64,000 nt of DNA from Candidatus Cloacimonadales bacterium (GTDB taxonomy: Bacteria; Cloacimonadota; Cloacimonadia; Cloacimonadales; JAFGVF01), in the NCBI GenBank assembly GCA_963677495.2, contig CAXXOU010000002.1, positions 1 to 64,000 on the forward strand, given 5' to 3'. Shown here piece after piece: positions 8,754 through 51,722 of the stretch (position 1 is the first letter of the stretch; every line of letters begins with the position of its first letter). The position numbers and the translations under genes were made by a program. Below the pieces are notes generated by a model. It was given only the letters and a program-made list of their open reading frames with translations. It ran no database searches and had not been told where the DNA came from.

Positions 8754-8897
8754 TCATTACTCTATCTTAATTCTCATAAAAGAACTACCGAAAGCTGGGG
8801 AGTCTCTTGGGCATTCCTGGGGCAAATGGACAAGTGACTGCTAAGATATTGATAGGAGAAAAGGTGTCTTTGACTCATAATTATGATAGAGCAATGA
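8754..8897. repeat. ~144-bp TIR element, copy A
   Basis: tcattactctatcttaatt ... aattatgatagagcaatga (17/19 inverted match); core is homologous to copy B in reverse orientation. Confidence 0.75.
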
Positions 8898-8910
8898 GAG
8901 GACATTGGAA

Positions 8911-8935
8911 AAGGCAGACTGAAATAGTCTGCCTT
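8911..8935 (-). terminator. Terminator after valS
   Basis: aaggcagact-gaaat-agtctgcctt hairpin. Confidence 0.75.
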
Positions 8936-8958
8936 CATTAAGTCTATTTATTTAAGCT

Positions 8959-11604
8959 TTAGCTTAAGCCATCAAGAAGCTCTTTGGTTTTATCCAACTT
9001 CTCCTTAACCTCTTCATACTTAGCTTTCTCTTTCTCTACAATCTCAGGTTTTGCTTTACTCAAGAACTTCTCATTACTGAGTTTTCTTGAGATACCGTTA
9101 AACTCTTTCTCAAGCTTATCAAGTTGCTTCTGAATCTTAGCTTTCTCAGCATCCATATCGATAAGACCTTCTAAGGCAAGATAGAGAGTTGTTGAACCAA
9201 CCACTGCAGCTATTGCACCTTTTGGCTTCTCTGATGTGAACTCAATACCGGTTACTTTAGCAAGCTTATTCAAATAACCATTATACTCTTTGTAAAGAGC
9301 TTCAACTGATGAATCATCAGTTACAACGGTGATATTTACCTCTAAACCGGGACTTAAGTTAACCTGCTTTCTAAGGTTTCTGATAGCAGTGATAGAGTCC
9401 TGGATGAACTTCATTTCAGCAGAGATCTTCTTATCAATCATAGCTTCATTTGCAATCGGATACTGAGCAATAATCAAAGCTTCTTCATCATTAGGAAGCT
9501 GAGACTTAATCCCCTGCCAAACCTCTTCAGTGATAAATGGCATAATCGGGTGAAGCATACGCATAGATTTCTGCATTACATCTAACAAGATATACTTAGC
9601 TGTTAGCTGACCAACTTTGTCATCAGTATTATAGATTCTATCTTTTGTTAACTCTAAGTACCAAGAACAGAACTCATTCCAGATGAACTGCATGAGTGAA
9701 GACGCAGCATCATTGAAACGAAGTGTTTCATAATACTCGCCAACCTCTTTTGATACTTCATTCAAGCGACTGTAAATCCACTTGTCTGCAAGTTCAAGTC
9801 GGAGTTCTTCCTGCTTAGGCATACCTTCAATCTGCTCAGCATTCATCATAATGTATCTATATGCATTCCATATCTTATTGGCAAAGTTTCTACCATTCTC
9901 AAGTAGAGCATCTGAGTAATAACTATCAGCACCTTTAGGAGTATTGAAGATAATACCGAATCTAAGGGCATCAGCACCAACTTTCTTGATAATATCGATA
10001 GGATCAGGTGAGTTACCAAGAGACTTACTCATCTTACGACCGATCTCGTCACGAACGATTCCATGCAGATAAACTGTATCGAAAGGAATGGCTCCTCTGA
10101 ACTCGAGAGTTGACATAATCATTCTAGCAACCCAAAGATAGATAATCTCATGACCTGTAACCAGTAGATTTGTTGGTAAGAAGTAGTTCAACTCCTCTGT
10201 TTCTTCCGGCCAACCCATGGTTGAGAAAGGCCATAACCAGCTTGAGAACCAGGTATCAAGAACATCTTCATCTTGTCTGAAAGAACCATGTCCACATTTT
10301 GGACACTCTTTAGGTGCATCAACTGAAACTACAAGTTCACCACACTCTTCACAATAGTAAGCTGGGATTCTATGACCCCACCAGATTTGACGTGAAATAC
10401 ACCAGTCTCTGATGTTGTTCATCCAATGCATGTAAACCTTGGTCCAGCGTTCAGGTTGGAACTTAATCTCACCTGATTCAACCTTCTCAATAGCCTCTTT
10501 TGCAAGTGGCTCCATCTTAACAAACCATTGGTCTGAGAGATAAGGTTCAATAACAGTATCACATCTGTAGCATTGACCAACTGAATGAGTATGTGTGTCT
10601 ATCTTCTCTAAGAGACCTTCTGCTTCCATCATCTTAACGAGTTTCTTACGACACTCATACCTATCGAGTCCGGCAAACTCTTCACCGGCTGTCTCATTCA
10701 TAACACCGTGTTCATCTATAACGAGAATACGCTCAAGGTCATGTCTGTTACCAACTTCGAAGTCGTTAGGGTCATGAGCAGGAGTGATTTTAACACAACC
10801 TGTACCGAACTCCATATCAACATAACTATCAGCAATAACCGGAATCTCACGACCGGTAAATGGAAGAATAACATTCTTACCAATAAGGTCAGCATAACGC
10901 TCATCTTTAGGATTAACCGCAACAGCTGTATCACCAAGCATAGTCTCAGGTCTGGTTGTTGCTATTATAACATGACCTTTACCATCAACGCGTGGATAGC
11001 GAAAATGCCAGAGTTTACCTTCTGCATCTTCATGCTCAACTTCGTCATTCGCAAGTGCAGTTACGCAACGAGGACACCAGTTGATAATATATTTACCTTT
11101 GTAAACTAAGCCCTTTTCATAAAGGTGAACGAATACTTCACGAACAGCTTTTGATAAGCCTTCGTCCATTGTGAAGCGTTCTCGAGTCCAATCGCAAGAA
11201 GCTCCAAGTTGTTTAAGCTGTTCAATGATTCTGCCACCTTTCTCCTCTTTCCAGGACCAGATACGCTTAACTAGCTCTTCTCTACCAATATCGTGTCGGC
11301 TTAAGCCCTCTTTCGCAAGCTGCTTCTCAACAACATTCTGAGTTGCGATACCTGCATGGTCGACTCCCGGAATCCAGAGAGTAGGTACACCATTCATTCT
11401 TTTATAACGAATGATGACATCTTGTAATGTGTTGTTTAGTACATGCCCCATGTGCAGAATACCAGTTACGTTTGGTGGTGGAATCAAGATAGTGAAAGGC
11501 TCTTTGTCCTTATCTATTGTTGGGGAAAAGTATCCCTTATCATTCCAATGTTTATACCATTTCTTCTCAATCTGACCCGGATCGTAAGTCTTATTTATTT
11601 CCAT
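8959..11604 (-). CDS. valS: Valine--tRNA ligase
   Basis: PPPNVTGILHMGH, DWCISRQIWWGHRIP and KMSKS motifs; C-terminal coiled coil. Confidence 0.98.
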   Translation of the reverse strand: MEINKTYDPGQIEKKWYKHWNDKGYFSPTIDKDKEPFTILIPPPNVTGILHMGHVLNNTLQDVIIRYKRMNGVPTLWIPGVDHAGIATQNVVEKQLAKEGLSRHDIGREELVKRIWSWKEEKGGRIIEQLKQLGASCDWTRERFTMDEGLSKAVREVFVHLYEKGLVYKGKYIINWCPRCVTALANDEVEHEDAEGKLWHFRYPRVDGKGHVIIATTRPETMLGDTAVAVNPKDERYADLIGKNVILPFTGREIPVIADSYVDMEFGTGCVKITPAHDPNDFEVGNRHDLERILVIDEHGVMNETAGEEFAGLDRYECRKKLVKMMEAEGLLEKIDTHTHSVGQCYRCDTVIEPYLSDQWFVKMEPLAKEAIEKVESGEIKFQPERWTKVYMHWMNNIRDWCISRQIWWGHRIPAYYCEECGELVVSVDAPKECPKCGHGSFRQDEDVLDTWFSSWLWPFSTMGWPEETEELNYFLPTNLLVTGHEIIYLWVARMIMSTLEFRGAIPFDTVYLHGIVRDEIGRKMSKSLGNSPDPIDIIKKVGADALRFGIIFNTPKGADSYYSDALLENGRNFANKIWNAYRYIMMNAEQIEGMPKQEELRLELADKWIYSRLNEVSKEVGEYYETLRFNDAASSLMQFIWNEFCSWYLELTKDRIYNTDDKVGQLTAKYILLDVMQKSMRMLHPIMPFITEEVWQGIKSQLPNDEEALIIAQYPIANEAMIDKKISAEMKFIQDSITAIRNLRKQVNLSPGLEVNITVVTDDSSVEALYKEYNGYLNKLAKVTGIEFTSEKPKGAIAAVVGSTTLYLALEGLIDMDAEKAKIQKQLDKLEKEFNGISRKLSNEKFLSKAKPEIVEKEKAKYEEVKEKLDKTKELLDGLS

Positions 11605-11674
11605 GTGAATCCTCTATTTATATTCTTAATTATTAACTATTATTGATTAGCTTTAGGCTTAAGGCTATAGGCTT

Positions 11675-12235
11675 TTAGCTATTATCTATGCAGTATGCTT
11701 TGTAAGGCAAACCACGTCTTTCTAATTCTTTCTCCAGAAACTCTTTCTGAGTACTGAAAGCAACAGGAATCAGATCAGACAACGGGACGAACCGGGCATC
11801 GATGGCATCGTCACCGGCCCTTAATTCACCTCCTGTAATACGCATGCAAAAGCATAATGATAGCACTTTGTGATAGAAAGGATTGTCACCCATAACATAC
11901 CCAACAAAGTGGTCAACTTCACCAATGAGACCTGTTTCCTCCAGCATCTCATCAACAACAGCAGTCTCAGGAGTCTGATAGATCTCCATATAACCGCTAG
12001 GAAGAGCCCACTCTCCGGCTGCAGGTGGCAAACCACGTTTAATCATTACAACCTCATCCTTGTCGTTGATGATTATAGCAGCAACAACAGGAACCGGGTT
12101 GCGATAGAAAGTCCAACCACATTCCGGGCATATAGCTCTAAGCTTCCCCTCATCATCTTTCTTGAGTTCCAATTTCGTGCCACATCTCTGGCAGAAATTA
12201 ACTCCTTCATAGTGCTTTTTTGTAATTAAATCCAT
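11675..12235 (-). CDS. NUDIX hydrolase with N-terminal zinc ribbon
   Basis: CQRCG...CPECG, Nudix box GYMEIYQTPETAVVDEMLEETG and GDDA; start placed at the first ATG (MDLITKK). Confidence 0.85.
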   Translation of the reverse strand: MDLITKKHYEGVNFCQRCGTKLELKKDDEGKLRAICPECGWTFYRNPVPVVAAIIINDKDEVVMIKRGLPPAAGEWALPSGYMEIYQTPETAVVDEMLEETGLIGEVDHFVGYVMGDNPFYHKVLSLCFCMRITGGELRAGDDAIDARFVPLSDLIPVAFSTQKEFLEKELERRGLPYKAYCIDNS

Positions 12236-12314
12236 AGCAGTAACAAATTTAGGATGTGAGGATAATGTCAAGGATTATGGAACTACTAATTCGCAAGGAC
12301 AAAGTATTTTATTA

Positions 12315-13997
12315 TCAATTGCTATTGATAAGATGACTATCAGATACTTGGTTATCATAGAATTGCTTAACGAACTGTACAGGTAATGGCAGTTGATGGT
12401 GTCTACATGCAACAGTAATGATTGCTCCTAATCTATTTTTTATTGCTGACATATTTTCAAACTCAAGTTTTTGAGCACAAGTGTCGTAAACTATTTTTAA
12501 CAATTCTTGTGGATTTTTTGGTAAGTCAAAAATAATAGCTGTACCAAAGTTACTGGAATATGAGTATATCTCTTCTATTGATTCATTGTTTGGAGTCCAT
12601 AACTGGAAGGAACAATGAGATAGTTTTTCATGTCGAAATTTATAGATTTTATCGTATACATTATCAAAGCTAAAGAGTGCTGAGTAAAAAGCAATTAAAG
12701 GATATATCATAGAAGCGTCAGTAACTTTCATCTTGTACTGTTTGTCAGAATTTATTGGGTGATCAGATAGATCTTGATAAGTGTATAATGAACATGGGTA
12801 TCTGAGATTCGAGTTGAATGCAAAAATAGCTCTATCAGTTAATGATTCAAGATACTCTTTCAAAAAAACTTTGTTACTACATAGTACAGACAATATTAAT
12901 GATAGTTCTGATGCTTGCTTTTCGCTCAGAGGTGAAGCTAAAATTGGATTATTTCTGATTAGTTCTTCCAGATTTTCAGTTCTTTCGTTAATACATTGTA
13001 AAAAATCTTTTTGATTATCGGGGTAAATATTGTAAAAAGTTATTAACCACCAGATGTGAACTGCCAATCTACTTGCTAATGAAAAGACTCTAATACTTAT
13101 ATCTACACTGTTACCAGAAACAATACTTTCAGAAATAGAGAATTTACTATCAAAGAAAGGACTAAGTTTATCAACATAAGTATCTGTTATCAACATATAT
13201 AGTCTAAAAATGCTATCAAAGCTTGATCCAAAGTAATCAATATCTTCTTTAACTAGATCCCAGACTTTTAAGAGTGTTCTTTCTGATGCTAGATATGCTG
13301 CTTCCAAATTCCTCAAGTCCCTGCACCAAATAAATAATATCCATAAGCTAATATTCATTTCTCTTATTGTCTTAACAACTTGTTTCTTAACAGATAATTT
13401 TGTATTATCGATTAGATTATCGATTAATAAATTGTAGTTCTTTGTAGAAACTTCGGGATGTGAAATCATTGCAATAGACTTTCTTAGGTTGCTTTGATAA
13501 TTTGGAGGAAGTGCATGTTCATTTAATAGATATCTAATCATTAAATTTGTAATTGAATCTCCATTCCATTCCATGAAAGAAATTGTATTATTCTGATTAT
13601 TCTTAATATATCCGGTGACATTACTCCTAACAGATTCAACTATTTCTCCTCCTACACAAATGCATATAACAATTGGTAAATTTTGAAGTTCAGGGGGAAT
13701 GTTAATTTGAATATACACGTCTCTAATTTCATCAAGTGAAGTTCTTAAAGCTTGAAGAGAGTTACCATCCCATGTATTACGATCTAAATCTCCTCCCTTT
13801 ATAGAAAATAGGTACAATTTATGTGTGTCTCCACCTATTCTGCCATGTGCAGCAACATCAACACCATATTGCCTGGTCCCTATTTTGGGTTTACTCAACA
13901 CAGTTAATCCCATCGAACTAAGTAATTCCGGAATAATCCTGTCAAGTTCTCCTCTCTCTTTTAAGCCTGATAAGTATTGTTTGATAATCATCCTCAT
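12315..13997 (-). CDS. Putative defence nuclease with N-terminal PD-(D/E)XK (Mrr-like) domain; OloB-like
   Basis: ELD.IIPELL..MG...RQYGVDVAA...LFSIKGGDL pattern, then a long helical region; ATGA overlap with the upstream gene. Confidence 0.6.
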   Translation of the reverse strand: MRMIIKQYLSGLKERGELDRIIPELLSSMGLTVLSKPKIGTRQYGVDVAAHGRIGGDTHKLYLFSIKGGDLDRNTWDGNSLQALRTSLDEIRDVYIQINIPPELQNLPIVICICVGGEIVESVRSNVTGYIKNNQNNTISFMEWNGDSITNLMIRYLLNEHALPPNYQSNLRKSIAMISHPEVSTKNYNLLIDNLIDNTKLSVKKQVVKTIREMNISLWILFIWCRDLRNLEAAYLASERTLLKVWDLVKEDIDYFGSSFDSIFRLYMLITDTYVDKLSPFFDSKFSISESIVSGNSVDISIRVFSLASRLAVHIWWLITFYNIYPDNQKDFLQCINERTENLEELIRNNPILASPLSEKQASELSLILSVLCSNKVFLKEYLESLTDRAIFAFNSNLRYPCSLYTYQDLSDHPINSDKQYKMKVTDASMIYPLIAFYSALFSFDNVYDKIYKFRHEKLSHCSFQLWTPNNESIEEIYSYSSNFGTAIIFDLPKNPQELLKIVYDTCAQKLEFENMSAIKNRLGAIITVACRHHQLPLPVQFVKQFYDNQVSDSHLINSN

Positions 13998-15673
13998 AAC
14001 GGATCTCCAAATCTAAGATTAAAGGATTGTATTTCAAACCCTATGGGATCCAAGATAAATGATCGAGGTAGATGAATACTTGCTCCAATTGGGTTGAGCT
14101 TCATTTCTACTTTCTGAGTCTTGTGCTCAAAATCTTTTATCAAGACACATTCTGTACCAAGCATTAAAACATTTGTAGTGCAGAGTAACGATAACAATGA
14201 GCTCTTATTTGCTTCATCTAGCATTTTTTGTTCTTTATCCCATTTAAGTTTATGAAATAGTTGCCTTTCAAAATCTGATGGCTTTAACTCTTGGATTTCA
14301 GTTGTGTTCCTTATCCTGTCCATAATTACTTTGACTTCATCTTTAAACTTTAACAAAGTACTGCTTGCATTAATCAGACCTGTATCATTAGCTAATTCTT
14401 CGATCACATATGGATAGTCTTCAATTACTAACTCAATAAACAAAACTTCAAGTCCTTCTTTTAAGCTTTGATCTACATTCTCTATGATTGAGACAAAGAA
14501 AGTTAATAAGAACTTTAAGTTAATATGCAACCAGCCAATCAGTCTTAAGCTCAAAACTTTGATTTGCTTTTCTGTTAATGTAGACAAAACACTTACATCA
14601 ATAGAACCAATGAAACTAGCATTTGAGTTATCGATAATATCATGCAGGAATCTACACAATATTGGTTCACCAGAACTCATCCATTTTGTCACAAGGAAAT
14701 TCACTAGTGCTTTGTTTACTATGTGTGTTTTAAGTATTTTAAGATGTGCGAAATCATATTCAAGAGTATCATTTCTAAGTAATGATTCTAGTAAATCTAT
14801 AGCAGTGTCAGTTTTATTTATCTCAAAAAGTTCATTAATAAGAGAGATAACACTTTCAGAGTAGTCTAAACTATTAATATTATCATTGATAAAATCAAGA
14901 AATCTTTGCAAAACAGCGTTGTGCAATTGCTTAAGATAGTAAGTAAACAATCCAATCATCTCATGAAAAGAGATTTCTTTCTTAAGTAGACTAATTTGAA
15001 TATTGCATAGTTCCTCATAGTGTAAGCCTGTATCAGTTTGTACTTTGATGGAAAAAGCAAATATTGCTCTCAATGTTGCTATTTCATTCGTATTTATTAT
15101 GTTATCTCTAATTAATGAAGTAATCTTCTGGATTATGTCTTTATCTTTGTAGCTTTCAAGATGAATCCCACTGAAAGCATTTATAACAATCAACTGATAC
15201 TTCTTCTCTTTTAGTAACTCATCAGCTTTCTTAGAGAAAAAGTCTCTATCGATATCAAATCCATCAACAAGTGCATAATACAGAAAATCCAGATATTGTT
15301 CATTGTTTACTATTAGTTTCAACAGAGCTTTATGTGCATCTATGTTCCCTTTGTATTTATTGGAATAGAATCGATGATAGTTATAAGGTGAGTTTGAAGA
15401 AATATGGCTTATTGCGTCCAAGAATTCTTGAAGTTCAACTTCTAATAAGACTAGAAGATTGCTTATTCTATACCTTAATCCTGGATTACTTTCATCATCT
15501 AGAACAAACACGGTTGATAGAATTGCTTCAGTTATGTTAATCTTACTCTCATTGTGCAAATTGCTAATTGCACCATCGACTTCCTTATGAGAGAACTTAT
15601 TAGTTAAATTAACTACTTCGTCAATCAATTTTCCGGATTTATACAATGAAATTATTTCATTTGATAAACACAA
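13994..15673 (-). CDS. Hypothetical all-alpha (solenoid-like) protein, partner of the nuclease; OloA-like
   Basis: 559 aa, Leu/Ile-rich and helical, low GC; AAGGAG RBS before TTG; translationally coupled to the nuclease. Confidence 0.5.
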   Translation of the reverse strand: MCLSNEIISLYKSGKLIDEVVNLTNKFSHKEVDGAISNLHNESKINITEAILSTVFVLDDESNPGLRYRISNLLVLLEVELQEFLDAISHISSNSPYNYHRFYSNKYKGNIDAHKALLKLIVNNEQYLDFLYYALVDGFDIDRDFFSKKADELLKEKKYQLIVINAFSGIHLESYKDKDIIQKITSLIRDNIINTNEIATLRAIFAFSIKVQTDTGLHYEELCNIQISLLKKEISFHEMIGLFTYYLKQLHNAVLQRFLDFINDNINSLDYSESVISLINELFEINKTDTAIDLLESLLRNDTLEYDFAHLKILKTHIVNKALVNFLVTKWMSSGEPILCRFLHDIIDNSNASFIGSIDVSVLSTLTEKQIKVLSLRLIGWLHINLKFLLTFFVSIIENVDQSLKEGLEVLFIELVIEDYPYVIEELANDTGLINASSTLLKFKDEVKVIMDRIRNTTEIQELKPSDFERQLFHKLKWDKEQKMLDEANKSSLLSLLCTTNVLMLGTECVLIKDFEHKTQKVEMKLNPIGASIHLPRSFILDPIGFEIQSFNLRFGDPL

Positions 15674-15684
15674 AAGCTTCTCCT

Positions 15685-16308
15685 TTAGCGATTTAATCCT
15701 ATCGATTCTAATAGAATATGAAACTCAGAAAATGGAACTTTACAGTTCTGAATTCTAGTACCCAATGAAATAGCTCTACTTCTATTCTTTATTGATTGTT
15801 TAGAGTTACTAATTGCAGTATTTAAATTGGGTTTAAGGTATTCATATAGTTTTGCTGGGCACCTAGCTTTAATATAATTAGGAATATTCTTTTTTACTTC
15901 CATTTCCATTGCTTTACAATTTGAAATTGGTTTATTAACAATTTCATAATGAAATTTAATCCAAGTTTCAAAGCAGGGATATAACTCAATAACTGTAGCA
16001 TTATCAATTTTTTGTACTTCGTTAACAAGATTTTGATAATCAGTATACAACGACTGATTATGAATTTGATCTAAATCTACAATACAATATACTTGGGAAT
16101 GTTCCTCAATTGTTAGCTTCGAGGTGCTTTTATCAATCTCTGCCATATCTTTGATTTTCTCTAAAGCTTTCAAAGTGGCAAGCTTAAGGTTTGGTCTCAT
16201 TGAGAAAGGAATGTGATCATACTTTTTTAAATCCTTTAAATAAAGCTTCTCAGTTTCTCCATCACAATATACAAGAATCTGTTTTTTCTCACTTCTCTGT
16301 TTTCCCAT
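15685..16308 (-). CDS. RloB-like (TOPRIM-like) protein
   Basis: LVYCDGETEKLY, YCIVDLD and PCFETWIKFHYE motifs. Confidence 0.8.
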   Translation of the reverse strand: MGKQRSEKKQILVYCDGETEKLYLKDLKKYDHIPFSMRPNLKLATLKALEKIKDMAEIDKSTSKLTIEEHSQVYCIVDLDQIHNQSLYTDYQNLVNEVQKIDNATVIELYPCFETWIKFHYEIVNKPISNCKAMEMEVKKNIPNYIKARCPAKLYEYLKPNLNTAISNSKQSIKNRSRAISLGTRIQNCKVPFSEFHILLESIGLNR

Positions 16309-16310
16309 AA

Positions 16311-17615: not shown

Positions 17616-17735
17616 AATACCTCCATCTAATTGCGAAAACTGCAATAATTACGCAAATATTATAAATAGAAAGAGGTGTCAAGCTAATTCTATTTTCTCA
17701 AACGTGATTAAAGATGTAGTAGGTTTAAAGTTTCA

Positions 17736-17972
17736 TCACACCAAAAGCATAGATTTAAACTTAGCTTCCATAACCAAAACTAAAACTGCTACTTTGATGA
17801 TAATTAGGATTGCATAAAACAGTTTGTGACGTCTTGGGACAATAAATGAGAAAGCTAAAACTAGGGGGATTAATCCTAAGAAATAGACTGATACAATCAT
17901 CAGCAATATTTCACCTGCAAAGCGTAAGTTGATTTCTTGCTTATCTTTTTTGCTTTCATAAAGTTGTCGCAT
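17736..17972 (-). CDS. Small hypothetical membrane protein
   Basis: 78 aa, hydrophobic, GGAGG RBS. Confidence 0.6.
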   Translation of the reverse strand: MRQLYESKKDKQEINLRFAGEILLMIVSVYFLGLIPLVLAFSFIVPRRHKLFYAILIIIKVAVLVLVMEAKFKSMLLV

Positions 17973-18078: not shown

Positions 18079-18221
18079 TTCTAACTCTGCTACGAGTCTG
18101 GTACGTGCTATATCAAAAACCTGGAGTCTCGCTTGTCCCTCCCTTTAGCCTCCCTAGACCCTCCCTATGAAGTGATAAAGTTATCCACATCGTGTGCATA
18201 ACTTATTTAACGGTGCAAAGA
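18079..18221. repeat. ~143-bp TIR element, copy C, with DnaA-box palindrome
   Basis: Degenerate TIRs (ctctgctac ... cggtgcaaaga); cctccct at 18138/18149/18160; ttatccaca-tcg-tgtgcataa at 18181-18201. Confidence 0.6.
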
Positions 18222-18482
18222 AGCTCTTGATGCGACATGATAAAGAGAAGAAGCAGACTTGAAAATATAAGATAAAACTAGTTAGAACTATAAAATGAGC
18301 AATAGTCTATAGGAAGAGTACTTGTGCTTATAATGATTTTTGAATAATTGTGCCACTTATGGTTTGTTTCTTAAGAAGTCTGTTTCCGCTCCGCAAGCTT
18401 CGCATCTGACAAACTCCTTTTGAAACAGAGGGAGTTGACCTCTCCTTCTGAGTTAAATGAGTGAAGACTGGACTTGATAGGA

Positions 18483-22268: not shown

Positions 22269-22287
22269 TTTATAAATAGGAGATAAA

Positions 22288-27218: not shown

Positions 27219-27362
27219 TCAATGCTCTATCACAATAAGTAGTTGAGAACCATCAATATCTACTCCATTTCCGGACAGTCTCTTGTCAATTTCCCCAAGG
27301 GAGCCCCAAGAGACTCATTGGAATCGGACCTGTCTTCCATGGTAATTATGATAGAGCAATGA
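27219..27362. repeat. ~144-bp TIR element, copy B
   Basis: tcaatgctctatcacaata ... aattatgatagagcaatga; core is the reverse-complement homolog of copy A. Confidence 0.75.
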
Positions 27363-33660: not shown

Positions 33661-34113
33661 CTATAAAATCCCATTCATTAGCTCTTCATAGCGCGGAACA
33701 ATGGGTATAATCCCTGCTTCCACTGCCTGACGAACTGTGGTTATTGGAAGTCCACTATCTATTGCATATTGTGGAGTAATAGTTACTAAATTTACTGATG
33801 GTACTTCTCTTTTCAAAGAGTAAAGCATTTTAATTAGAAGTGAGTTTGAATTGACCCGAGTACCATGTCCCAGAACCATAATGTTGAATCGGTCTGAGTA
33901 GTTTTGCAAATCGGTGAGATAACCTTGGCTGATAGAATGATAGAACCTTCCAATATTGGATGAGCGTTCTGCCATACTATAGTGATTTTCTCCCATTGTT
34001 GGTTTAACATAAGCTCGAGCTAAAGGTGCTCCTGTAATCTTATCGACATAATAGACCATCTTTGCTAACTTGCCTACAAATCCATCTACCGGTCGCATGT
34101 ACTTAACTTTCAT
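33661..34113 (-). CDS. Hypothetical basic 150-aa protein (N-terminal G..GK...VYY...R pattern reminiscent of DUF6266-like proteins)
   Basis: GGAGGA RBS before MKVKY; has its own terminator; family resemblance is from memory only. Confidence 0.6.
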   Translation of the reverse strand: MKVKYMRPVDGFVGKLAKMVYYVDKITGAPLARAYVKPTMGENHYSMAERSSNIGRFYHSISQGYLTDLQNYSDRFNIMVLGHGTRVNSNSLLIKMLYSLKREVPSVNLVTITPQYAIDSGLPITTVRQAVEAGIIPIVPRYEELMNGIL

Positions 34114-34285: not shown

Positions 34286-34480
34286 TCCATCTGTGCCAAT
34301 CTTATCCCTGCTAGTCCCGTGGTCAACAAAAATGTTGCTATAGTCATCAAGTTATCCACATGATGTGGATAAATCGAGCCCTTCCACGAGAGGGTCACGA
34401 GAGGGTCACCTGTGGCGAACCTTTGAAACACCTTTTTTAGTCACGGGACCAGAAGGGATGAGGAAGGGCAAAATTGGAGC
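34286..34480. repeat. Long imperfect inverted repeat enclosing a DnaA-box palindrome and 11-bp repeats (element G)
   Basis: atccctgctagtcccgtg (34304-34321) pairs 16/18 with 34442-34459; ttatccaca-tga-tgtggataa at 34352-34372; cacgagagggt x2 plus cac at 34385/34396/34407. Confidence 0.75.
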
Positions 34481-44365: not shown

Positions 44366-45529
44366 CTAAAGTTCTTTTATGGCTTTTACCATCTTATCTA
44401 ATGCTAACTCTAATCTATTTTTTGGCAAGGCAAAATTTAGTCTCATGTAACCTTCACCAGATGGGCCGAACTCTGAACCCGGGCTTAAGGCAATGTTTGC
44501 CTCTTTCAGGAAGTAATCATTCAGCTCTTTACTTGTCTTGCCTGTGAATCTCAAATCAACCCAAGCAAGATAGGTTGCTTCTTGCTGTGCAACCTTTAGC
44601 TCAGGATGTATACCCTTAAGTTTTTCAACGACTAAGTTCAAGTTTTCACGTAAATAATCTTTTAACTCTTCCAACCAAGCTTCTCCATGATTATAAGCTG
44701 CTTCAAGAGCAACCATACCAAACGTATTAGCTGAGAACATATGAAGTTTAAACATATAAGCCTTTAGCTGTTTGCTAATTTTCTCATTAGGAATAATCAA
44801 AGCAGATGACATCAAACCTGGGATATTGAAGGTTTTACTTGGAGCAATACCTGTTATAGTGAATTCACTGAAATCTTCTAAAGTAGCAATCGGGATATGT
44901 TTTCTTTCTGAGAGAATCAAATCGTTGTGGATTTCATCACTAAACAAAAGTACGTTATGTTTCTTACAGAGTCTACCGAGTTTGAGAAGTTCCTCTTCTG
45001 TCCACATTCTACCAACCGGGTTATGAGGACTGCAGAATATGAACATCTTAATACCTTCAAGCTCTTTATCAAGTGCATCAAAGTCCATTTCCCAACTTCC
45101 ATTATTGTTGATTAGTTCATTAACAACAAGTTCTCTTTTATGGTCTAACACTGTATGTCTGAATGGACTGTAAACCGGTTCTTGAATCAGCACTTTGTCT
45201 CCTGGTTTAGTGAACTCTAAGAGCACGAAGTTTATCCCGGGAACGATACCGGGACTGTTTGTAATCCAATCTTTCTGAATCTTCCAGCCATGTCGTCTAT
45301 CCACCCAATTGATGATAGATTGGTAGTAACTATCAGGTCTGAAGTTATAGCCGTAAACCGGATGCTTCAGTCTCTCTTCCATGGCTTTAGTAATTTCCGG
45401 CGCAATCGCGAAGTCCATATCAGCTACCCAAAGTGGGATAATGTCATCTTTCTTGTAAAACATGCTAAGAGCATCATATTTATAACAACCTGTGCCATTA
45501 CGGTCATACAGTTTATCAAAATCGTACAT
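44366..45529 (-). CDS. MalY/PatB family PLP-dependent enzyme
   Basis: [35 protein letters not shown] and RLNFA. Confidence 0.9.
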
Positions 45530-45726
45530 AAATGGTTTCCTTTATATATTGTTTTCTTTAGCTACGTAAGTGATTCTCAAACGTCAATAAAAATATAAAC
45601 TATTCTCTTACTGCTCCCATTCAACCCTCGGGAATGTGACGCGACTTGCTCGGGATTTTCATGGGAATTTCTCGGGCAAAGCCCCGAGTGATTCTTATAT
45701 TGACTGAAGAATCAAACATCAGTCTG

Positions 45727-45871
45727 TCATTGCTCTGCTACAATCTTTAACACTTCCGAATGAGACTCCTATTGAAACCCTATTCAAATGTTGCGTGTGA
45801 ATAATAAGATTTGGATATGTTTTTGAAAGGGTAGAGATTGGTTTAGATTGATAATTATGGCAGTGCAATGA
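45727..45871. repeat. ~145-bp TIR element, copy D
   Basis: tcattgctctgctacaatc ... aattatggcagtgcaatga; core is the reverse-complement homolog of copy F. Confidence 0.75.
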
Positions 45872-45885
45872 GGATGAGATGAGGT

Positions 45886-45997
45886 GTAAGGGTTCAACAA
45901 CTTGAACCCTTGTTTGATGACAATAATATCCGATAAACCAAGCATAATAAAGTACACATATGGAGACACCTTAGGGCTCAAAATGTTGAGCCCCTAC
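45886..45997. repeat. REPIN-like inverted REP doublet
   Basis: GTAA-gggttcaa...ttgaaccct and, on the minus strand, GTAG-gggctcaa...ttgagccct. Confidence 0.65.
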
Positions 45998-46418
45998 GAT
46001 AGAATGGCAAAGATTCTACCTTGATAATGGTCGCAGACCTTCTCAATGGTGCTCTTGGAAGAAGTGAATCGCAACGAAGTGTGATTCGCTAATTCCTGTA
46101 TTCGAAGCCTGATTCGTTCTCGCACCACACTTCGTTGCGGTGCAAGTCTGAGATAGTTTCTTCGAAGTGCACCATTCGGAAGGATTCGCAAGCTCAACCA
46201 TTACGAAGGTACATCTTTTCGCACTTCCCCAAACTCCCGATGGTCGTACAAGTGATCGCTTCACTTCTCTTCATTCAGCTTCAGTCTTCGCTTAAAGCTA
46301 CGCCCAGATAATTAAATTGTAAACTTCTGTGTATTGATTTAAAGTGCACTAATACAAGAAAAAGCTTTACTATTCTAAACAAAGTATTTTTAATTGCAAA
46401 AAATATTATTGGGGTAAT

Positions 46419-48308
46419 ATGAAAAGAGCGATTGTAGTATTGGGGTTACTGTTGATTGCGATATCATTATACTGTTGGAACAAAACAGGGGAGAAGGAAG
46501 CAATCCTACATCTTTTTGAGAATAGTGAAAATCAAGAGAATTTATTAAACATTTTAGAATTTTCATCAACTGCTGATGAGTATTTTCAAAAGACAGACTT
46601 ATTGATTCCTGAGGTTTTGAAAAAGAAAGAATATAGAAGAGCATTAAGCCTTCATTTAGTCAGTTATGCTCATCATCGTAATAGCAAATCTCCTTCTGTT
46701 GTGGATAGCTTAGCAAAAGAGATAGTAAATCTATATGAAGCTAACAAACTCAATCCTAAAGAGTTCGAGATTCTAACTAAAATGGGTCAAGTCTATAACG
46801 ATCTTGAGATGATAGATAAAGCATACGAATGTTATATTAAAGGAATTCAGAACTTTGTTGTAGGATATGACTCACAAGATTTATTGCAGACTACCCATTC
46901 GAGAACAGGATATTTAGCAAGATTGTTAGGTGATTTAGATAGTGCTGAAAACCATGCAAAGATAGCCATTGATTTAGCAAAAAAAGATAATAATGTTGCT
47001 AAACTAGGCTATGAATACAATAACTTGGGTAATGTTTATCTAGATAGAAAGAATATGGATAAAGCCTTAGAGTACTACCAAAAGTCATTAAGATATAAAA
47101 TTGAAACCGGAGACAAGAGAAGAATTGGTGGTGCATATAACAATATAGCGTTGATTCAATATGAAAGAGGTGACAAAAAGGGTTGTTTAGAGAACTTAAA
47201 ACTTGCTGTTTCATATTATGAGGCTACCGATAATGAGACAGAAGCCTTAATCACGAGTTATCAGAACATATGTCAAGTTTATCACGAAACTGGTGATAAT
47301 AAAAGAGCTATTTACTATGGAAGATTGGCTATTAAGAAGGCTAATGAAAGCAAGCTGCCTATTAGTGAATCATGGTCTGTTTATACACTTGAAGAGGTTT
47401 ATAGAAATATTGGTGATTACAAAGAAGCCTACAAACTTTCCAAAAGACATCGAACAATTAAAGACTCTTTGTTCAAGGCTGAAATGACTAGGAACATAGC
47501 AGAGATGAAGGCAGAATTTAACCTTTTCGAAGCTGAGAAGAAGCAAGAACTGCAGGCTATCCGGATAAAACGGCAACATATAATGATTATTGGAGCTTTC
47601 ACTATTATGATAGGTCTGATTATTATAATTTACCAGAACATTCGCAACTCGAAAAATCAGCAGAGATCAATGCAGGTTATAAAAAAAGAGCAACAAAACT
47701 CAGAAGCCCTATTGGCAAATGTTTTACCTGATTCAATAATCAAAGAGATTAAGACTAAAGGAGAAGCAAGTCCGCGTTTATATGAAAATGTTGCAGTTTT
47801 AAATATAGATATTGTTGGGTTTACTAAACTAGCTGATACTCAAGATCCAGACAAGTTGTTTAGCAAAGTAAACAAAGTTTTTACTGTGTTTGATGATATA
47901 GCACTTAAACATGGCTGTCAAAGGATCAAAACATCCGGTGATGCGTACTTGGCGGTGTCAGGTATGTTTAGTCATGACCCGGATTACATTCAAAATATAT
48001 TCAATGCTGCGGTAGAGATATTGAGTCATATGAATAGTGATTGTAAAGATATGCAATTCAGAGCTGGTATAGCTTGTGGGAGGATAGTTGGGGCAGTCGT
48101 TGGAACCAAAAACTTCATTTATGATATTTTTGGAGCAACAGTCAATACAGCTTTTAGATTGCAACAAGGAGCTGAGCCGGGAACAATATTAATCGATGAG
48201 AAAATTGCATTAGCGATAGACAGAGAGAACCTTGAACTTAAGGATATAGAATTAGTTATAAAGGATAAAAAGTATCAGGCAAAATGGGTGCAGTTAAATA
48301 AAAATTGA
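46419..48308 (+). CDS. TPR-repeat membrane adenylate/guanylate cyclase (class III)
   Basis: Signal, TPRs (YNNLGNVY, AYNNIA), TM, DIVGFT, IKTSGDAY and YDIFGATVNTA.RL. Confidence 0.88.
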   Translation: MKRAIVVLGLLLIAISLYCWNKTGEKEAILHLFENSENQENLLNILEFSSTADEYFQKTDLLIPEVLKKKEYRRALSLHLVSYAHHRNSKSPSVVDSLAKEIVNLYEANKLNPKEFEILTKMGQVYNDLEMIDKAYECYIKGIQNFVVGYDSQDLLQTTHSRTGYLARLLGDLDSAENHAKIAIDLAKKDNNVAKLGYEYNNLGNVYLDRKNMDKALEYYQKSLRYKIETGDKRRIGGAYNNIALIQYERGDKKGCLENLKLAVSYYEATDNETEALITSYQNICQVYHETGDNKRAIYYGRLAIKKANESKLPISESWSVYTLEEVYRNIGDYKEAYKLSKRHRTIKDSLFKAEMTRNIAEMKAEFNLFEAEKKQELQAIRIKRQHIMIIGAFTIMIGLIIIIYQNIRNSKNQQRSMQVIKKEQQNSEALLANVLPDSIIKEIKTKGEASPRLYENVAVLNIDIVGFTKLADTQDPDKLFSKVNKVFTVFDDIALKHGCQRIKTSGDAYLAVSGMFSHDPDYIQNIFNAAVEILSHMNSDCKDMQFRAGIACGRIVGAVVGTKNFIYDIFGATVNTAFRLQQGAEPGTILIDEKIALAIDRENLELKDIELVIKDKKYQAKWVQLNKN

Positions 48309-48427
48309 CAAACATAATCCCCATATGAATGATTGAAGAGAAAAAGCATTATTTTTCTTTGGTATTCTTAAGAACATGCTTAGTATATTCAAGTGAAAAG
48401 AACATGAATATAAATAAAGGAGATAAA

Positions 48428-48802
48428 ATGGAAAGTAAACAAGTTTATTATTGCCCGGTTTGTGGGAATGTAATTGAAGTCTTACATCCTGGAGCTCCTG
48501 CACTAGTTTGTTGTGGGCAGGATATGGAATTGTTAGAAGAGAAAACAGCTGATTTTGTTAACGAAAAGCATGTGCCAATAGTAGAAGAAGTAGATGGAGG
48601 CGTGTTAGTAAAAGTTGGTTCAACAAAGCATCCTATGGTTGATGATCACTACATTGCATTTATCCAAATTGTTACAAAAGACACTGTTATGCGTGTTGAA
48701 TTGAAACCTGGCGATGAGCCTGAAGCATTCTTCCCAGTAAAGAAAGAAGATGTACTCTACGCTCGCGAATGGTGTAATAAGCACGGGCTTTGGAAAGGCT
48801 AA
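48428..48802 (+). CDS. dfx: Desulfoferrodoxin (2Fe superoxide reductase)
   Basis: CPVCGN..LVCCG, EKHVP, HPM..DHYI and CNKHGLW; AAGGAG RBS. Confidence 0.93.
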   Translation: MESKQVYYCPVCGNVIEVLHPGAPALVCCGQDMELLEEKTADFVNEKHVPIVEEVDGGVLVKVGSTKHPMVDDHYIAFIQIVTKDTVMRVELKPGDEPEAFFPVKKEDVLYAREWCNKHGLWKG

Positions 48803-48804
48803 AA

Positions 48805-48987
48805 ATGGCAGATGTTAAAGATAAAGTTTTAGAGATATTCAAGAATGCAGCAGAACCGATGAAAGCCGGAGAAGTTGCAGAAAAGGGTAACTTGGATTCT
48901 AAAGAAGTATCAAAAGAGATTACTAAACTAAAGAAAGAGGGATTACTAGAATCCCCCAAAAGATGTTATTATCAAATAAAAAAATAA
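48805..48987 (+). CDS. 60-aa winged-helix protein
   Basis: KVLE....EPMKAGEVAE...DSKEV.K.I.KLKKEG..ESPKRCYY. Confidence 0.8.
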   Translation: MADVKDKVLEIFKNAAEPMKAGEVAEKGNLDSKEVSKEITKLKKEGLLESPKRCYYQIKK

Positions 48988-49001
48988 TGTGAGGAGATAG
49001 A

Positions 49002-49580
49002 ATGAAAGGCACTAAAACCGCAGAAAATCTTATGAAAGCTTTTGCCGGAGAATCACAGGCAAGAAATCGTTATATGTTTGCAGCAAAAACAGCAAAGAAA
49101 GAGGGATTTGAAGAGATCTCTGCTATCTTTAAAGAAACTGCAGAAAATGAACAGGAACATGCCAAGTTATTCCTTAAACATTTATTAAAGCATGGAATGG
49201 AAGGCGAAGGTGTTGAAATTACAGCGATGTATCCTGCTGCCTGGGCAAAAACCAGTACTTTAAAGAATCTTGAGTATGCAGCAAATGGTGAGAACGAAGA
49301 GTGGACTGAGCTTTATCCTGAATTTGCAAAGATTGCTGAAGAGGAAGGATTCAAAGATGTAGCTGTAGCCTTCAAAATGGTTGCTCTTGTAGAAAAAGAC
49401 CATGAAGAACGTTATCGTCGTCTTCATAAATTTGTCCAAGATAATGAAGTTTTCAAACGTGATGGAAAAGTTTTCTGGAAATGCCGTAACTGTGGTTATA
49501 TTACAGAATCAATGGAAGCACCAACAGTTTGTCCTGTTTGTGATCACCCTCAATCTTATTTTGAAGTAACATATAAATAG
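49002..49580 (+). CDS. rbr: Rubrerythrin
   Basis: [28 protein letters not shown] and C-terminal [15 protein letters not shown]. Confidence 0.95.
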
Positions 49581-49600
49581 TAAATAACATAGGAGGAAAC

Positions 49601-49741
49601 ATGCAAAAATATCAATGTCTCGCTTGTGGATGGATCTATGATCCCGCTGAAAATGACAATGTAACATTTGAAGACTTACCAGAAGATTGGGTTTGCCCAG
49701 ATTGTGGTGTCGGCAAAGATATGTTCGAACCAGTAGACTAA
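49601..49741 (+). CDS. Rubredoxin, 46 aa (missing from the ORF track)
   Basis: [55 protein letters not shown]. Confidence 0.93.
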
Positions 49742-49752
49742 ATTATAGTAAT

Positions 49753-49783
49753 GGGCTGTACGATAAGTACAGCCCTTTCTTTT
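49753..49783 (+). terminator. Terminator after rubredoxin
   Basis: gggctgtac-gataa-gtacagccc followed by a T-tract. Confidence 0.85.
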
Positions 49784-49805
49784 TAAACTTATTTCAGGAG
49801 GATTA

Positions 49806-50252
49806 ATGCAAGCCAATTCAGATGTATTTGATATCATGATTGATAAAGAGCAGGAAGCAGTAGCTTTCTATACTGCCATGTTAGAACAGGCAAAATTCGA
49901 AGCTTTCAAAGATACTATTAGGGAATTTATCAAAATGGAAGAGAACCATGTTAAAATTATAGAAGACTTTAAAGAACATGGTTTCAAAGACAGACAAATG
50001 AAAGACTTTAAATCTCTTGGGTTAAGTTCTGAAACTGATGAAGCAAAACCTATTGATGCTACATCTTATGAGTCAATTCTGCATCAAGCAATCCAAAGAG
50101 AAGAAGCTGCTTTTCAGTTATATACTCAATTACAAAATGATATGCAGGGAACTGAATATGAGTCCATATTTGCAACAATGGCGAAAGAGGAAAAGAGTCA
50201 TAAATATTACTTTGAAAAACTCTATGATGAGCATATTCTAAAGGACAATTAG
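49806..50252 (+). CDS. Ferritin-like/rubrerythrin-domain protein
   Basis: E..A..FY, EENH, E..A..LY and EKSH di-iron pattern. Confidence 0.85.
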   Translation: MQANSDVFDIMIDKEQEAVAFYTAMLEQAKFEAFKDTIREFIKMEENHVKIIEDFKEHGFKDRQMKDFKSLGLSSETDEAKPIDATSYESILHQAIQREEAAFQLYTQLQNDMQGTEYESIFATMAKEEKSHKYYFEKLYDEHILKDN

Positions 50253-50293
50253 TTCAAAAATTTATAAGCCTGATGTTTTGCATCAGGCTTTCT

Positions 50294-50740
50294 TTAATCT
50301 TCTAAAACACTAAACGGGTTCTGTGAATTCTCCTGCAATTGCTTAGTTGCTTTGGAAGGCCCTGATTTATCTATTCTAAATGCTCTCGGATTATCAATGA
50401 ATCCACATTTTTTATAGAATGCTTCGTTCCCTTCCGTTGATGTCAGAAAGAAATATGTCCCTTCAAATTCATCTTTTATCAGTTCCAGCATCGCTCGTGC
50501 GATACCTTTCTTCTGATATTTAGGAGATACAATTACATCAAAGATATTTGTGTAATAGTATTTATCAGATATAGCCCTAGCGAAGCCAACAAGTTTTTTA
50601 CCATCTCTAGCCGTGATATAATATGAGTTTTCAAATGCTTGGATTATATCAATGCCCGATTTATTCCAACCAACACTTTTAAAAAGTGCAATTATCTCTT
50701 CTGCATCAATCACTGAGTTAATCGAATATGTTATTGTCAT
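50294..50740 (-). CDS. GNAT N-acetyltransferase
   Basis: LVGFARA, DVIV.PKYQKKGIA and FYKKCGF. Confidence 0.88.
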   Translation of the reverse strand: MTITYSINSVIDAEEIIALFKSVGWNKSGIDIIQAFENSYYITARDGKKLVGFARAISDKYYYTNIFDVIVSPKYQKKGIARAMLELIKDEFEGTYFFLTSTEGNEAFYKKCGFIDNPRAFRIDKSGPSKATKQLQENSQNPFSVLED

Positions 50741-50850
50741 GGTTCCTCCATATTGCTTTGGAATATCTAAACAAACCTATGAAATATGTCAACAACTGTT
50801 CAGCTCTATCTGTTCATGGACTTAGTGGACAGGAGTTGACTGAGTGATTG

Positions 50851-50992
50851 ATTGCTCTCTGCTACTAGTTATTACTCTTGTATCTTATCATCATCTGAAA
50901 CTAATCCGATTCCCATCTCCCGTAACGTGTTTCTAACGGGGAGCTAACGGGAAGCTAACGGGTATCTAATTGGAATTATGGCAGAGAAATTC
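50851..50992. repeat. ~142-bp TIR element, copy E
   Basis: ctctgctac ... aattatggcagag; taacg at 50923/50934/50945/50956. Confidence 0.7.
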
Positions 50993-51140
50993 ATCGGCGT
51001 TGTACCGTTTAAACGGCGGGGTGTTTTTTTAGAATATACTCTAATTACTCAAACCACGAAATGCACAAAAACACACGAAAAGGGATTACATTATTTTAGT
51101 GCTCTTTCGAGTGTTTCGTGGTTAATAAGTCCTGAGAATT

Positions 51141-51452
51141 GCAGTACAATCGTAGTGCAAGTGTCCCCACTTGCACATAGCTCGATAGAGCTATAACCGG
51201 GAAGCCAATCGTGATCTGGAACTAGTATTGACCTGAATAATCATAGACTAAGTTCTACGTTCGAACGTATGATTTCCAAGTTCCGGTCAGTGGAAGCTGT
51301 CGACTTTGTCGGCACAGCAACTCGGGAGAGTCGCAGTACAATCGTAGTGCAAGTGTCCCCACTTGCACATAGCTCGATAGAGCTATAACCGGGAAAACAA
51401 TCGAGTTCAGAAACTAGTATTGACATGTATAATTAAAAGCTAAGTCTATGTT
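51141..51452. repeat. ~120-bp direct repeat pair containing a GTAG-REP hairpin
   Basis: gcagtacaatcGTAGtgcaagtgtccccacttgcacatagc... at 51141 and 51333; an inverted copy of the hairpin lies near 34951-34980. Confidence 0.85.
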
Positions 51453-51577
51453 TATATGGGCTTAATATGAATAGCCCCGGGTTTTGTGAACCTGGGGTCA
51501 AGTATCCCCATAAGTCATTTAGAACCCTAAGGGGACAAGATAAAGCATTTGCTATCAGTTTCACAGCTATTTAGCTC

Positions 51578-51722
51578 TCACTCTTCTGCTATAATCAATA
51601 TTCATTAGATATTTCAATCTTATCAAATTCGTGTCTAAGACCTGTTAAAGAATAACTACATTCTAATAGGGATTCAACAGGTGTCTCATTCTAGATGGAT
51701 GATAATTGTAGCAGAGCAGTGA
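51578..51722. repeat. ~145-bp TIR element, copy F
   Basis: tcactcttctgctataatc ... aattgtagcagagcagtga. Confidence 0.75.

What the first reader, a model, noticed from the sequence alone, without database searches (positions are those of the whole stretch)
8754..51722. Dispersed family of ~144-bp elements with conserved TIRs, constant length and 11-bp-phased, highly variable cores
Seen: six intergenic elements at 8754-8897 (144 bp), 18079-18221 (143), 27219-27362 (144), 45727-45871 (145), 50851-50992 (142) and 51578-51722 (145). They share ~19-bp terminal inverted repeats (approximate consensus tcattgctctRYYayaatt; degenerate in the 18079 copy). The cores fall into subtypes (A with B and D with F are reverse-complement homologs; C and E are distinct), yet each has 2-4 short repeats spaced 11 bp apart, e.g. 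taacg at 50923/34/45/56, cctccct at 18138/49/60 and cctatt x2 in D. Copies A and C both have ggagtctc 44-45 bp from the left end. A further phased tract (gctcgggattt/tcatgggaatt/tctcgggcaaa) at about 45649-45688 abuts D. I see no target-site duplication and no transposase. Inference: conserved geometry without conserved sequence suggests a protein-bound or wrapped DNA unit, an invertible segment, or an unusual non-autonomous mobile element. I do not recognise it as a described family. Most copies lie upstream of promoters, including that of rnpB.
Basis: partly seen in the sequence, partly recalled or inferred. Interest (0 to 1): 0.8.

Follow-up and report, generated by a model that had tools for sequence, protein, structure and literature searches.

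The report
Evenly spaced helical-lattice DNA landmarks
Hundreds of 144-base DNA modules built on a one-turn (11-base) grid sit between the genes of a Cloacimonadota bacterium, keep an unusually even spacing along the chromosome whatever their sequence family, and lie upstream of an unstudied multi-copy protein gene whose product likely coats them, which would make them an undescribed kind of chromosome landmark.

Summary
The genome holds 78 inverted-end pairs, 77 of them 144 or 145 bp, against 0.08 per other length. All fit one frame, 14+5x11+6+5x11+14, shared by seven subtypes with 291 members in two congeneric genomes; length changes mostly by 11 or 22 bp. I found no target duplication, matching IS end, Rfam match or promoter bias. 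At orthologous loci, conserved positions (80-90% identical) and length persist while synonymous sites are at 42%. (1) Pooled over 11-bp-lattice families, the sites are evenly spaced: gap CV 0.58 and 0.52 against about 0.9 expected; other repeats 1.0. (2) An orphan 150-aa gene family has a lattice upstream of 24 of 24 main-clade copies and downstream of none; a clade of 8 was excluded post hoc. Best reading: protein-coated chromosome landmarks (0.45). Main rival: selfish elements spaced by target immunity (0.3). Binding, function and the spreading enzyme are untested. This scan noted the repeat family before in other windows of this genome; the even spacing was in no note shown to me.

The parts
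8754..8897 (.). 144-bp element, AAGAGA subtype, downstream of valS
   Evidence: valS
18100..18243 (.). 144-bp element, DnaA-box subtype (frame corrected from 18079-18221); TTATCCACA at 18181-18189 (the DnaA-box label is recalled); end repeats degenerate
27219..27362 (.). 144-bp element, AAGAGA subtype, opposite orientation to 8754, 56 bp before the RNase P RNA match (27419-27813); a decayed remnant of about 90 bp lies at the same place in G001
33661..34113 (-). Orphan 150-aa gene, one of 22-23 paralogues in the genome; candidate reader protein (inferred)
34324..34404 (.). 11-bp lattice (partial match to the DnaA-box subtype) about 210 bp upstream of the orphan gene's ATG
45609..45694 (.). Truncated element of the CTCGGG subtype: cap, five units, centre and one unit; the rest is missing next to the 45727 element
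45727..45871 (.). 145-bp element, subtype with a 7-bp centre
50849..50992 (.). 144-bp element, TAACG subtype; one end degenerate
51578..51722 (.). 145-bp element, same subtype as 45727, opposite orientation

Best explanation
These are fixed-length double-stranded DNA modules, two head-to-head rows of five 11-bp units between 14-bp caps, that are likely coated one helical turn at a time by a family of small Cloacimonadota proteins and likely serve the host as interchangeable chromosome landmarks kept about 10-25 kb apart. Shown: the frame; the length constraint; the absence of target duplications; gain and loss between species; conservation of blocks and length at retained loci; even spacing of the pooled families; and the position upstream of the orphan genes. 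Inferred: that the orphan protein binds the lattice; that the bound modules anchor loops or limit supercoiling domains; and that new copies arrive by a copying route without target duplication (enzyme unknown) and are kept where no other lattice is near.
For: Frame and length: 195 of 220 near-full profile matches have no length deviation, 15 differ by 11 or 22 bp, 10 otherwise. The invariant block sits 11 or 22 bp out of place in several copies with total length kept. Selection in place: in three orthologous pairs conserved positions are 80-90% identical with no gap, and variable positions in the two ordinary loci are 22-31%, against 42% at four-fold sites of 193 genes; 0 of 30 ordinary convergent spacers keep their length. 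Spacing: gap CV 0.58 (G000, 292 spacers) and 0.52 (G001, 117) against 0.86 and 0.93 for random spacers and 0.87 and 0.92 size-matched; non-lattice repeats give 1.06 and 1.01. Spacers with an end-paired element lie a median 7.3 kb from the next lattice against 3.8 kb for empty spacers (G001: 14.9 against 6.7 kb). Interchangeability: 8 of 244 syntenic spacers carry a lattice in both species (odds ratio 15), and in 6 of these 8 the family differs. Protein link: lattice upstream of 15 of 15 and 9 of 9 main-clade orphan genes (8.5 and 3.0 expected), downstream of 0 of 24 (4.1 expected); the three genes behind AAGAGA elements form one supported clade and the three behind CTTGG elements another; dN/dS about 0.04-0.13 in five orthologue pairs; confident model, pLDDT 95.5.
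Against: No binding, expression or chromosome-contact data exist. The orphan link reaches 24 of 24 only after a clade of 8 genes (1 of 8 with a lattice) was set aside post hoc; with it the counts are 16 of 22 and 9 of 10, and two earlier, coarser tests showed little or no enrichment (12 of 22; 9 of 22 and 4 of 10). The two genomes are not independent. The variety of families upstream of orphan genes is no greater than random draws (p 0.19 and 0.09), so one protein per family is not shown; shared clade and subtype may be co-inheritance. The fold resemblance to ribbon-helix-helix proteins is weak (best Z 4.0, none of 48,161 chains at Z 5 or more). Most loci are not conserved: of 9 syntenic G000 loci, 7 lack an end-paired element in G001. 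Spacing differs twofold between the species. Single families are mostly spaced at random. The orphan family occurs in 39 of 61 relatives while this element's core pattern is confined to the genus. The syntenic co-occupancy was not corrected for spacer size.
Confidence: 0.45

Rival explanations
1. Selfish non-autonomous mobile elements. The lattice is a transpososome-type assembly platform, the orphan gene with its upstream lattice is the master copy or helper, and the even spacing comes from target immunity shared across families, not from a benefit to the host.
For: Presence and absence between species; young families with nearest-neighbour identity of 85-90%; homology between some close copies ends within 3 bp of a cap and one element in G003 abuts a truncated gene at its cap; Mu cis-immunity is strongest near 5 kb and fades by 25 kb (PMC7350765, passages); IS607 ends use helically phased motifs and make no target duplication (PMC6188088, passages).
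Against: No catalytic fold was recognised in the orphan protein; no serine recombinase; caps score below zero at the ends of the resident IS3-, IS21- and IS110-type elements; retained copies keep blocks and length while their variable positions are saturated, which selection between transposing lineages alone would not give; several elements share one spacer; in most close pairs homology runs tens to hundreds of bases past the cap.
Confidence: 0.3
2. Operators of a family of paralogous, autoregulated transcription factors; the dispersed copies are their regulons.
For: Lattices lie upstream and never downstream of main-clade orphan genes; copies sit before rnpB and before two of three rRNA operons; the geometry recalls parC-ParR autoregulation (PMC2241845, passages).
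Against: Convergent spacers are occupied as often as tandem ones; neighbours share no function; the rRNA operons of G001 that were read lack the element; regulation does not predict even spacing.
Confidence: 0.08
3. Fold-back single-stranded elements moved by the genome's Y1 (RAYT-type) transposases together with neighbouring REP-like repeats.
For: 14 Y1 matches in the genome; left and right caps co-vary in three subtypes (z 4.6, 3.2, 2.6); the 145-bp subtype is often next to repeats that flank Y1 genes (12 of 18 within 150 bp); some homology tracts end at such repeats.
Against: AAGAGA (5 of 47), DnaA-box (1 of 68), CTCGGG (0 of 24) and CTTGG (2 of 39) copies are rarely within 60 bp of those repeats; no cap covariation in the AAGAGA, TAACG and 145-bp subtypes; the repeats flanking the Y1 genes are different sequences.
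Confidence: 0.08
4. A family of structured non-coding RNAs closed by a terminal stem.
For: Single strands fold better than shuffles, z -1.3 to -4.5 as DNA; cap covariation in three subtypes.
Against: No covariation between caps or any dominant pairing diagonal in 53 AAGAGA copies (p 0.35-0.46); core-only folding z about -1.3 on both strands; no Rfam match at gathering score; an RNA does not explain chromosomal spacing.
Confidence: 0.05
5. Invertible promoter segments flipped by a site-specific recombinase.
For: Inverted ends without target duplication; the centre has an 11-6-11 geometry like a tyrosine-recombinase core (recalled).
Against: No serine recombinase and only two tyrosine recombinases; same orientation at three orthologous loci; inversion needs neither fixed length nor phased cores.
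Confidence: 0.03

Closest known systems
Bacterial MITEs (Correia/CREE, ERIC, Nezha, Chunjie; PMC3184786, abstract and section 4 read)
   Same: Under 200 bp, intergenic, terminal inverted repeats, no coding core, present or absent between relatives.
   Different: No target duplication; no resident IS with the same ends; cores 42% identical at the median yet gap-free; built on an 11-bp grid; different families exclude each other along the chromosome.
REP/BIME elements with RAYT (PMC3333891, passages)
   Same: Hundreds of dispersed intergenic copies, mosaic composites, proposed DNA-structuring role, targeted by an IS3-family element (compare IS1397; PMC1525189, passages).
   Different: No 5' GTAG plus short hairpin unit; unit is a helical-turn repeat; fixed total length; the genome's own Y1-flanking repeats are a separate class and are not evenly spaced as part of the non-lattice control.
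Plasmid R1 parC with ParR (PMC2241845, passages)
   Same: Two sets of five 11-bp repeats in about 150 bp, upstream of the gene for a small protein; weak ribbon-helix-helix-like resemblance of the candidate reader.
   Different: Arms are inverted around a 6-bp centre, not direct around a 39-bp promoter; hundreds of chromosomal copies in many sequence families; no adjacent partition ATPase gene seen.
IS607-family ends with serine TnpA (PMC6188088, passages)
   Same: Helically phased short motifs that nucleate a protein filament; no target duplication.
   Different: IS607 ends lack terminal inverted repeats; no serine recombinase in this genome.
BldC/Xis-type head-to-tail binders (PMC5859096, passages)
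   Same: One protomer per direct repeat, AT-rich stretch plus one read C-G pair; variable repeat number.
   Different: The candidate protein is 150 aa and its model did not match a MerR-like winged helix; a Cox-like profile hit was weak (E 7e-4, 1 of 89 members).

Membership tests
MITE | Terminal inverted repeats around a short non-coding core | tested here: met
MITE | Target-site duplication | tested here: not met
   No excess over expectation in 78 copies for repeats of 2-9 bp and end trims of 0-6 bp; at most 6 of 194 copies for any 4-bp window with both ends slid from -20 to +7
MITE | Ends shared with an autonomous IS | tested here: not met
   Cap profile scores -3.7 to -12.7 at the ends of four IS pairs; no PF01609 match; strict end pattern in 185,579 genomes gave six stretches, all short elements. 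Not every transposase family was searched, and ISfinder was not available.
MITE | Filled and empty sites between relatives | tested here: met
   7 of 9 and 3 of 5 syntenic loci lack an end-paired copy in the other genome; the species are too distant (about 80% amino-acid identity) to fix the junctions
REP/REPIN with RAYT | 5' GTAG tetranucleotide followed by a short imperfect hairpin | tested here: not met
   Consensus caps and units show no such unit
REP/REPIN with RAYT | The same repeat flanks a Y1 transposase gene | tested here: not met
   Flanks of 11 Y1-family genes printed carry other repeats; one has a 145-bp element 393 bp downstream
IS607-family ends | Helically phased motifs, no target duplication | tested here: met
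IS607-family ends | No terminal inverted repeats; serine-recombinase TnpA | tested here: not met
   Inverted caps present; no PF00239 match in the 99.5%-complete genome
parC/ParR centromere | Two sets of five 11-bp repeats upstream of the binder's gene | tested here: met
   arms are inverted here
parC/ParR centromere | Binder is a ribbon-helix-helix protein | tested here: inconclusive
   Several RHH domains among the top rows but Z at most 4.0 (TraM N-domain, rmsd 2.4, 49 aligned)
parC/ParR centromere | Single locus in an operon with a partition ATPase | tested here: not met
   Hundreds of chromosomal copies; no shared ATPase neighbour
Described RNA family | Rfam match at gathering score | tested here: not met
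   only RNase P RNA and a tRNA in the window
Inverton | Both orientations in a population | tested here: inconclusive
   Only contigs of one sample were available

The most novel reading that the evidence does not exclude
Cloacimonadota carry an undescribed chromosome-marking system: a diversifying family of small proteins and cognate 144-bp helical-lattice DNA modules that spread through the genome, replace one another across sequence families, and settle into an even grid of protein-coated anchors every 10-25 kb, a sequence-encoded scaffold for the nucleoid.
Probability: 0.35. Interest if true: 0.92.

Novelty: categorically new. Interest (0 to 1): 0.78.

Why it matters
What sets the boundaries of the roughly 10-kb supercoiling domains of bacterial chromosomes is an old open question (own knowledge). 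A genome that writes interchangeable, fixed-geometry modules at that spacing, next to a small candidate binder that should be easy to express, makes the question directly testable by binding assays, structure and Hi-C. If the spacing instead reflects target immunity, it points to a mobile element with no recognisable transposase and an exclusion mechanism that works across sequence families.

Tried and rejected
Inversion: contigs of four runs (one sample, probably the genome's source) laid on 44500-53000 gave only joints between repeat copies among the rows shown, and two runs on 8300-27700 gave no joint; contigs drop rare variants. Expression: no RNA holder listed. Rearrangement hot spots: element spacers are less often syntenic in G000 (10 of 50 against 158 of 380, p 0.003) but not in G001 (p 0.78), and the effect is confounded with spacer length. 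Replication-strand bias: none visible. Proximity of the six short Y1 genes to elements (4 of 6 within 2.5 kb): their flanks carry other repeats. Xis/Cox-like helix-turn-helix in the orphan's C-terminus: one weak profile hit, not borne out by the fold searches; Foldseek found nothing at E 0.001 in PDB or BFVD; no Pfam family at cut-off; no match in phage or plasmid records; no longer fused form among 8000 candidates scored; Atlas gave unnamed Cloacimonadota clusters and a weak DUF6266 lead (0.86, 12% of members). One reader per family: not supported by the diversity test. Replication of the gene-lattice link outside the genus: the DNA was not read; a CACTG lattice pattern had no match in five genomes of other genera. 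A homodimer prediction for the orphan protein was not available. GANTC methylation sites in the units: not on the 11-bp grid in the main subtype, dropped. A 199-aa gene family lies within 2.5 kb of orphan genes in 8 of 10 cases and has no Pfam match at cut-off; not pursued.
Full report
Setting. The window is the start of contig C2 of a 3.41-Mb, 99.5%-complete genome in four contigs. The only records with the strict end pattern among 185,579 genomes are Cloacimonadota assemblies: five stretches titled Ca. Zophobacter franzmannii and one unnamed Cloacimonadota bin. For comparison I read 2.8 of the 3.1 Mb of G001, a closed genome of the same genus with about 80% amino-acid identity over 1,656 reciprocal best hits.

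Observation. An end profile iterated from four window copies finds 78 pairs: 62 of 144 bp, 15 of 145 bp and 1 of 143 bp, against 0.08 pairs per other length. G001 has 17. Median core identity among the 78 is 42%. Lag-11 identity is 0.40 against 0.264 in shuffles. In non-coding DNA generally, 283 tracts repeat at lag 11, against 8 at lag 10 and 2 at lag 12.

Anatomy. Every subtype parses as a 14-bp cap, five 11-bp units, a 6-bp centre (7 bp in the 145-bp subtype), five inverted units and a cap. A weak base bias continues for one more unit outside the caps. One arm usually keeps near-perfect units and the other is degenerate but in register. Profiles of seven subtypes give 291 members, 233 in G000 and 58 in G001; of 220 near-full matches 195 have no length deviation, 15 differ by 11 or 22 bp and 10 otherwise. 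In several copies the invariant block lies 11 or 22 bp out of place with total length kept, and some copies mix units of two subtypes. Adding the other 11-bp tracts gives 528 sites, and 16 families with five or more copies. The core pattern of the main subtype occurs in 4 of 232 genomes of the phylum, all in this genus.

Not an ordinary MITE. No target duplication appears at any tested boundary. The caps do not match the ends of the resident IS3-, IS21- and IS110-type elements (family names recalled from the protein sequences). The genome has no serine recombinase, two tyrosine recombinases, no PF01609 match and 14 Y1 matches whose flanks carry other repeats. Homology between close copies ends at the cap in some pairs and up to several hundred bases beyond it in others. 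The elements do come and go: 7 of 9 syntenic G000 loci and 3 of 5 G001 loci have no end-paired copy in the other genome; 69 of 78 loci could not be tested for lack of synteny.

Selection in place. At three orthologous loci the copies align without a gap. Conserved positions are 80-90% identical, while variable positions in the two ordinary loci are at 22-31% and four-fold sites at 42%. None of 30 ordinary convergent spacers keeps its length. Against this, the copy before rnpB has decayed to about 90 bp in G001. Left and right caps do not co-vary in the AAGAGA, TAACG and 145-bp subtypes; they do in three others (z 2.6-4.6), which may reflect arm-to-arm copying or sub-lineages. I read the constraint as acting on double-stranded DNA.

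Even spacing. With all lattice families pooled and each spacer counted once, the coefficient of variation of the gaps is 0.58 in G000 (292 of 611 spacers of 250 bp or more) and 0.52 in G001 (117 of 455), against 0.86 +/- 0.05 and 0.93 +/- 0.08 for random spacers; none of 1,000 draws reached the observed value. Size-matched draws give 0.87 and 0.92, and dispersed non-lattice repeats give 1.06 and 1.01. Gaps under 6 kb number 55 against 111 expected in G000; gaps under 10 kb number 9 against 38 in G001. Median gaps are 10 and 22 kb. Single families are mostly random (AAGAGA p 0.4; CTTGG is the exception), and the seven subtypes alone are regular in G000 but not significantly in G001 (p 0.2). The finding's own elements take part: median distance to the next lattice 7.3 kb against 3.8 kb for empty spacers (68 and 319 spacers), and 14.9 against 6.7 kb in G001. 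In the window the occupied spacers are 9.3, 9.1, 7.1, 11.3 and 5.2 kb apart. Of 244 syntenic spacers, 8 are occupied in both species, 27 in G000 only and 4 in G001 only; in 6 of the 8 the family differs (not corrected for spacer size). The pattern therefore belongs to the lattice as a class, not to one sequence.

Candidate reader. A note from this scan on another genome (e1-7067511) tied a similar element to a many-copy orphan gene, so I looked for one. The window holds one (33661-34113, minus strand), from a family of 22-23 paralogues in G000 and 13 matches in G001, of which 10 were called in the part read. First tests over the whole family were unimpressive. The protein tree then showed a long-branch clade of 8 with a lattice upstream of only one member. 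For the other 24, a lattice lies in the upstream spacer in 15 of 15 and 9 of 9 cases (8.5 and 3.0 expected from gap-matched genes; p about 1e-4 and 1e-5) and in the downstream spacer in none (4.1 expected). The exclusion was post hoc. Subtype follows clade for the AAGAGA and CTTGG groups (3 of 3 each), and the linked elements are 68-90% identical between species. Most families with five or more copies have a member upstream of an orphan gene; TAACG, the 145-bp subtype and one small family do not. The variety is not above random draws. The genes are under purifying selection. The model is confident (pLDDT 95.5; three short strands then five helices) but has no clear structural match; the best rows include many ribbon-helix-helix domains at Z 3-4, which is inconclusive.

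Mechanism. Shown: frame, length constraint, turnover, block conservation, spacing, gene linkage. Inferred: a small protein binds once per helical turn and coats both arms, as ParR does on the two sets of five 11-bp iterons of parC (PMC2241845) or BldC on direct repeats (PMC5859096); the coated module acts as a loop anchor or supercoiling barrier, as proposed in part for BIMEs (PMC3333891); one module per 10-25 kb is favoured, so families can replace each other. I put this at 0.45. The main rival (0.3) is a selfish element with target immunity, whose range in Mu (strongest near 5 kb, fading by 25 kb; PMC7350765) fits the gap deficit. Conservation in place and the lack of a catalytic partner weigh against it; the high turnover weighs for it. 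The two are not exclusive.

Literature. Read: PMC3184786 (abstract and section 4); passages only of PMC6188088, PMC5859096, PMC2241845, PMC3333891, PMC1525189 and PMC7350765. No supplement was read. Five searches returned no listing that describes such elements or the protein (titles and abstract starts only); the library lacks most subscription papers, and a 2026 preprint on intergenic features listed was not opened. This scan has reported the repeat family several times from other windows of this genome and similar phased elements from other lineages; those notes are unchecked and are not independent support. A look-up for even spacing with an upstream orphan gene returned nothing.

Verdict. 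The feature is real and fails the defining tests for MITE, REP, IS607 ends and parC while sharing traits with each. The even spacing across families and the candidate binder make it testable; function remains inferred. Interest 0.78.

Noticed in passing
G000 C2:141822-143059, C2:234403-235640, C2:359505-360742, C3:92692-93929, C4:221018-222255, C4:1237849-1239086: All six copies of an IS3-type element have their left end within about 30 bp of, or inside, the cap of a CTTGG lattice element, in the same orientation; four show a 3-bp duplication. It appears to target the lattice, as IS1397 targets REPs.
   Followed up: partly
G000 C2:80970-81113 and C4:10210-10353: A CTCGGG element lies upstream of two of the three rRNA operons; the homology between the two operons ends at the element's outer end. 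The third operon has a DnaA-box-subtype copy nearby (C3:413308).
   Followed up: partly
window 18100-18243 and 34324-34404: The most numerous subtype (68 matches in G000, 10 in G001) keeps an inverted pair of DnaA-box-like 9-mers (label recalled).
   Followed up: partly
L024:1350-1640 (G003): An element abuts the last third of an orphan-family gene, with the junction at the cap; the rest of the gene is absent from the locus.
   Followed up: partly
G000 C1:784049-784627, C3:297731-298330, C4:1464981-1465571 and four more: A seven-member family of about 199-aa proteins without Pfam match often lies convergent to the orphan genes.
   Followed up: partly
window 34500-35100, 45900-46300, 51000-52130: Spacers packed with other palindromic repeat families, some of which flank Y1 transposase genes elsewhere in the genome.
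   Followed up: partly
G000, 17 sites such as C1:188674 and C4:986331: An IS21-type element of 2,361 bp with 7-8-bp duplications; many insertions fall in repeats, three inside lattice elements.
   Followed up: no
window 48329-50252: Oxidative-stress cluster: desulfoferrodoxin, rubrerythrin and a second rubrerythrin-like protein.
   Followed up: no
upstream of several orphan-family genes, e.g. G000 C3:297206, C4:453465, C4:1070940: A recurring motif of the form TATARHWATAGRGG some 60-190 bp before the start; about 60 near-matches per genome.
   Followed up: partly
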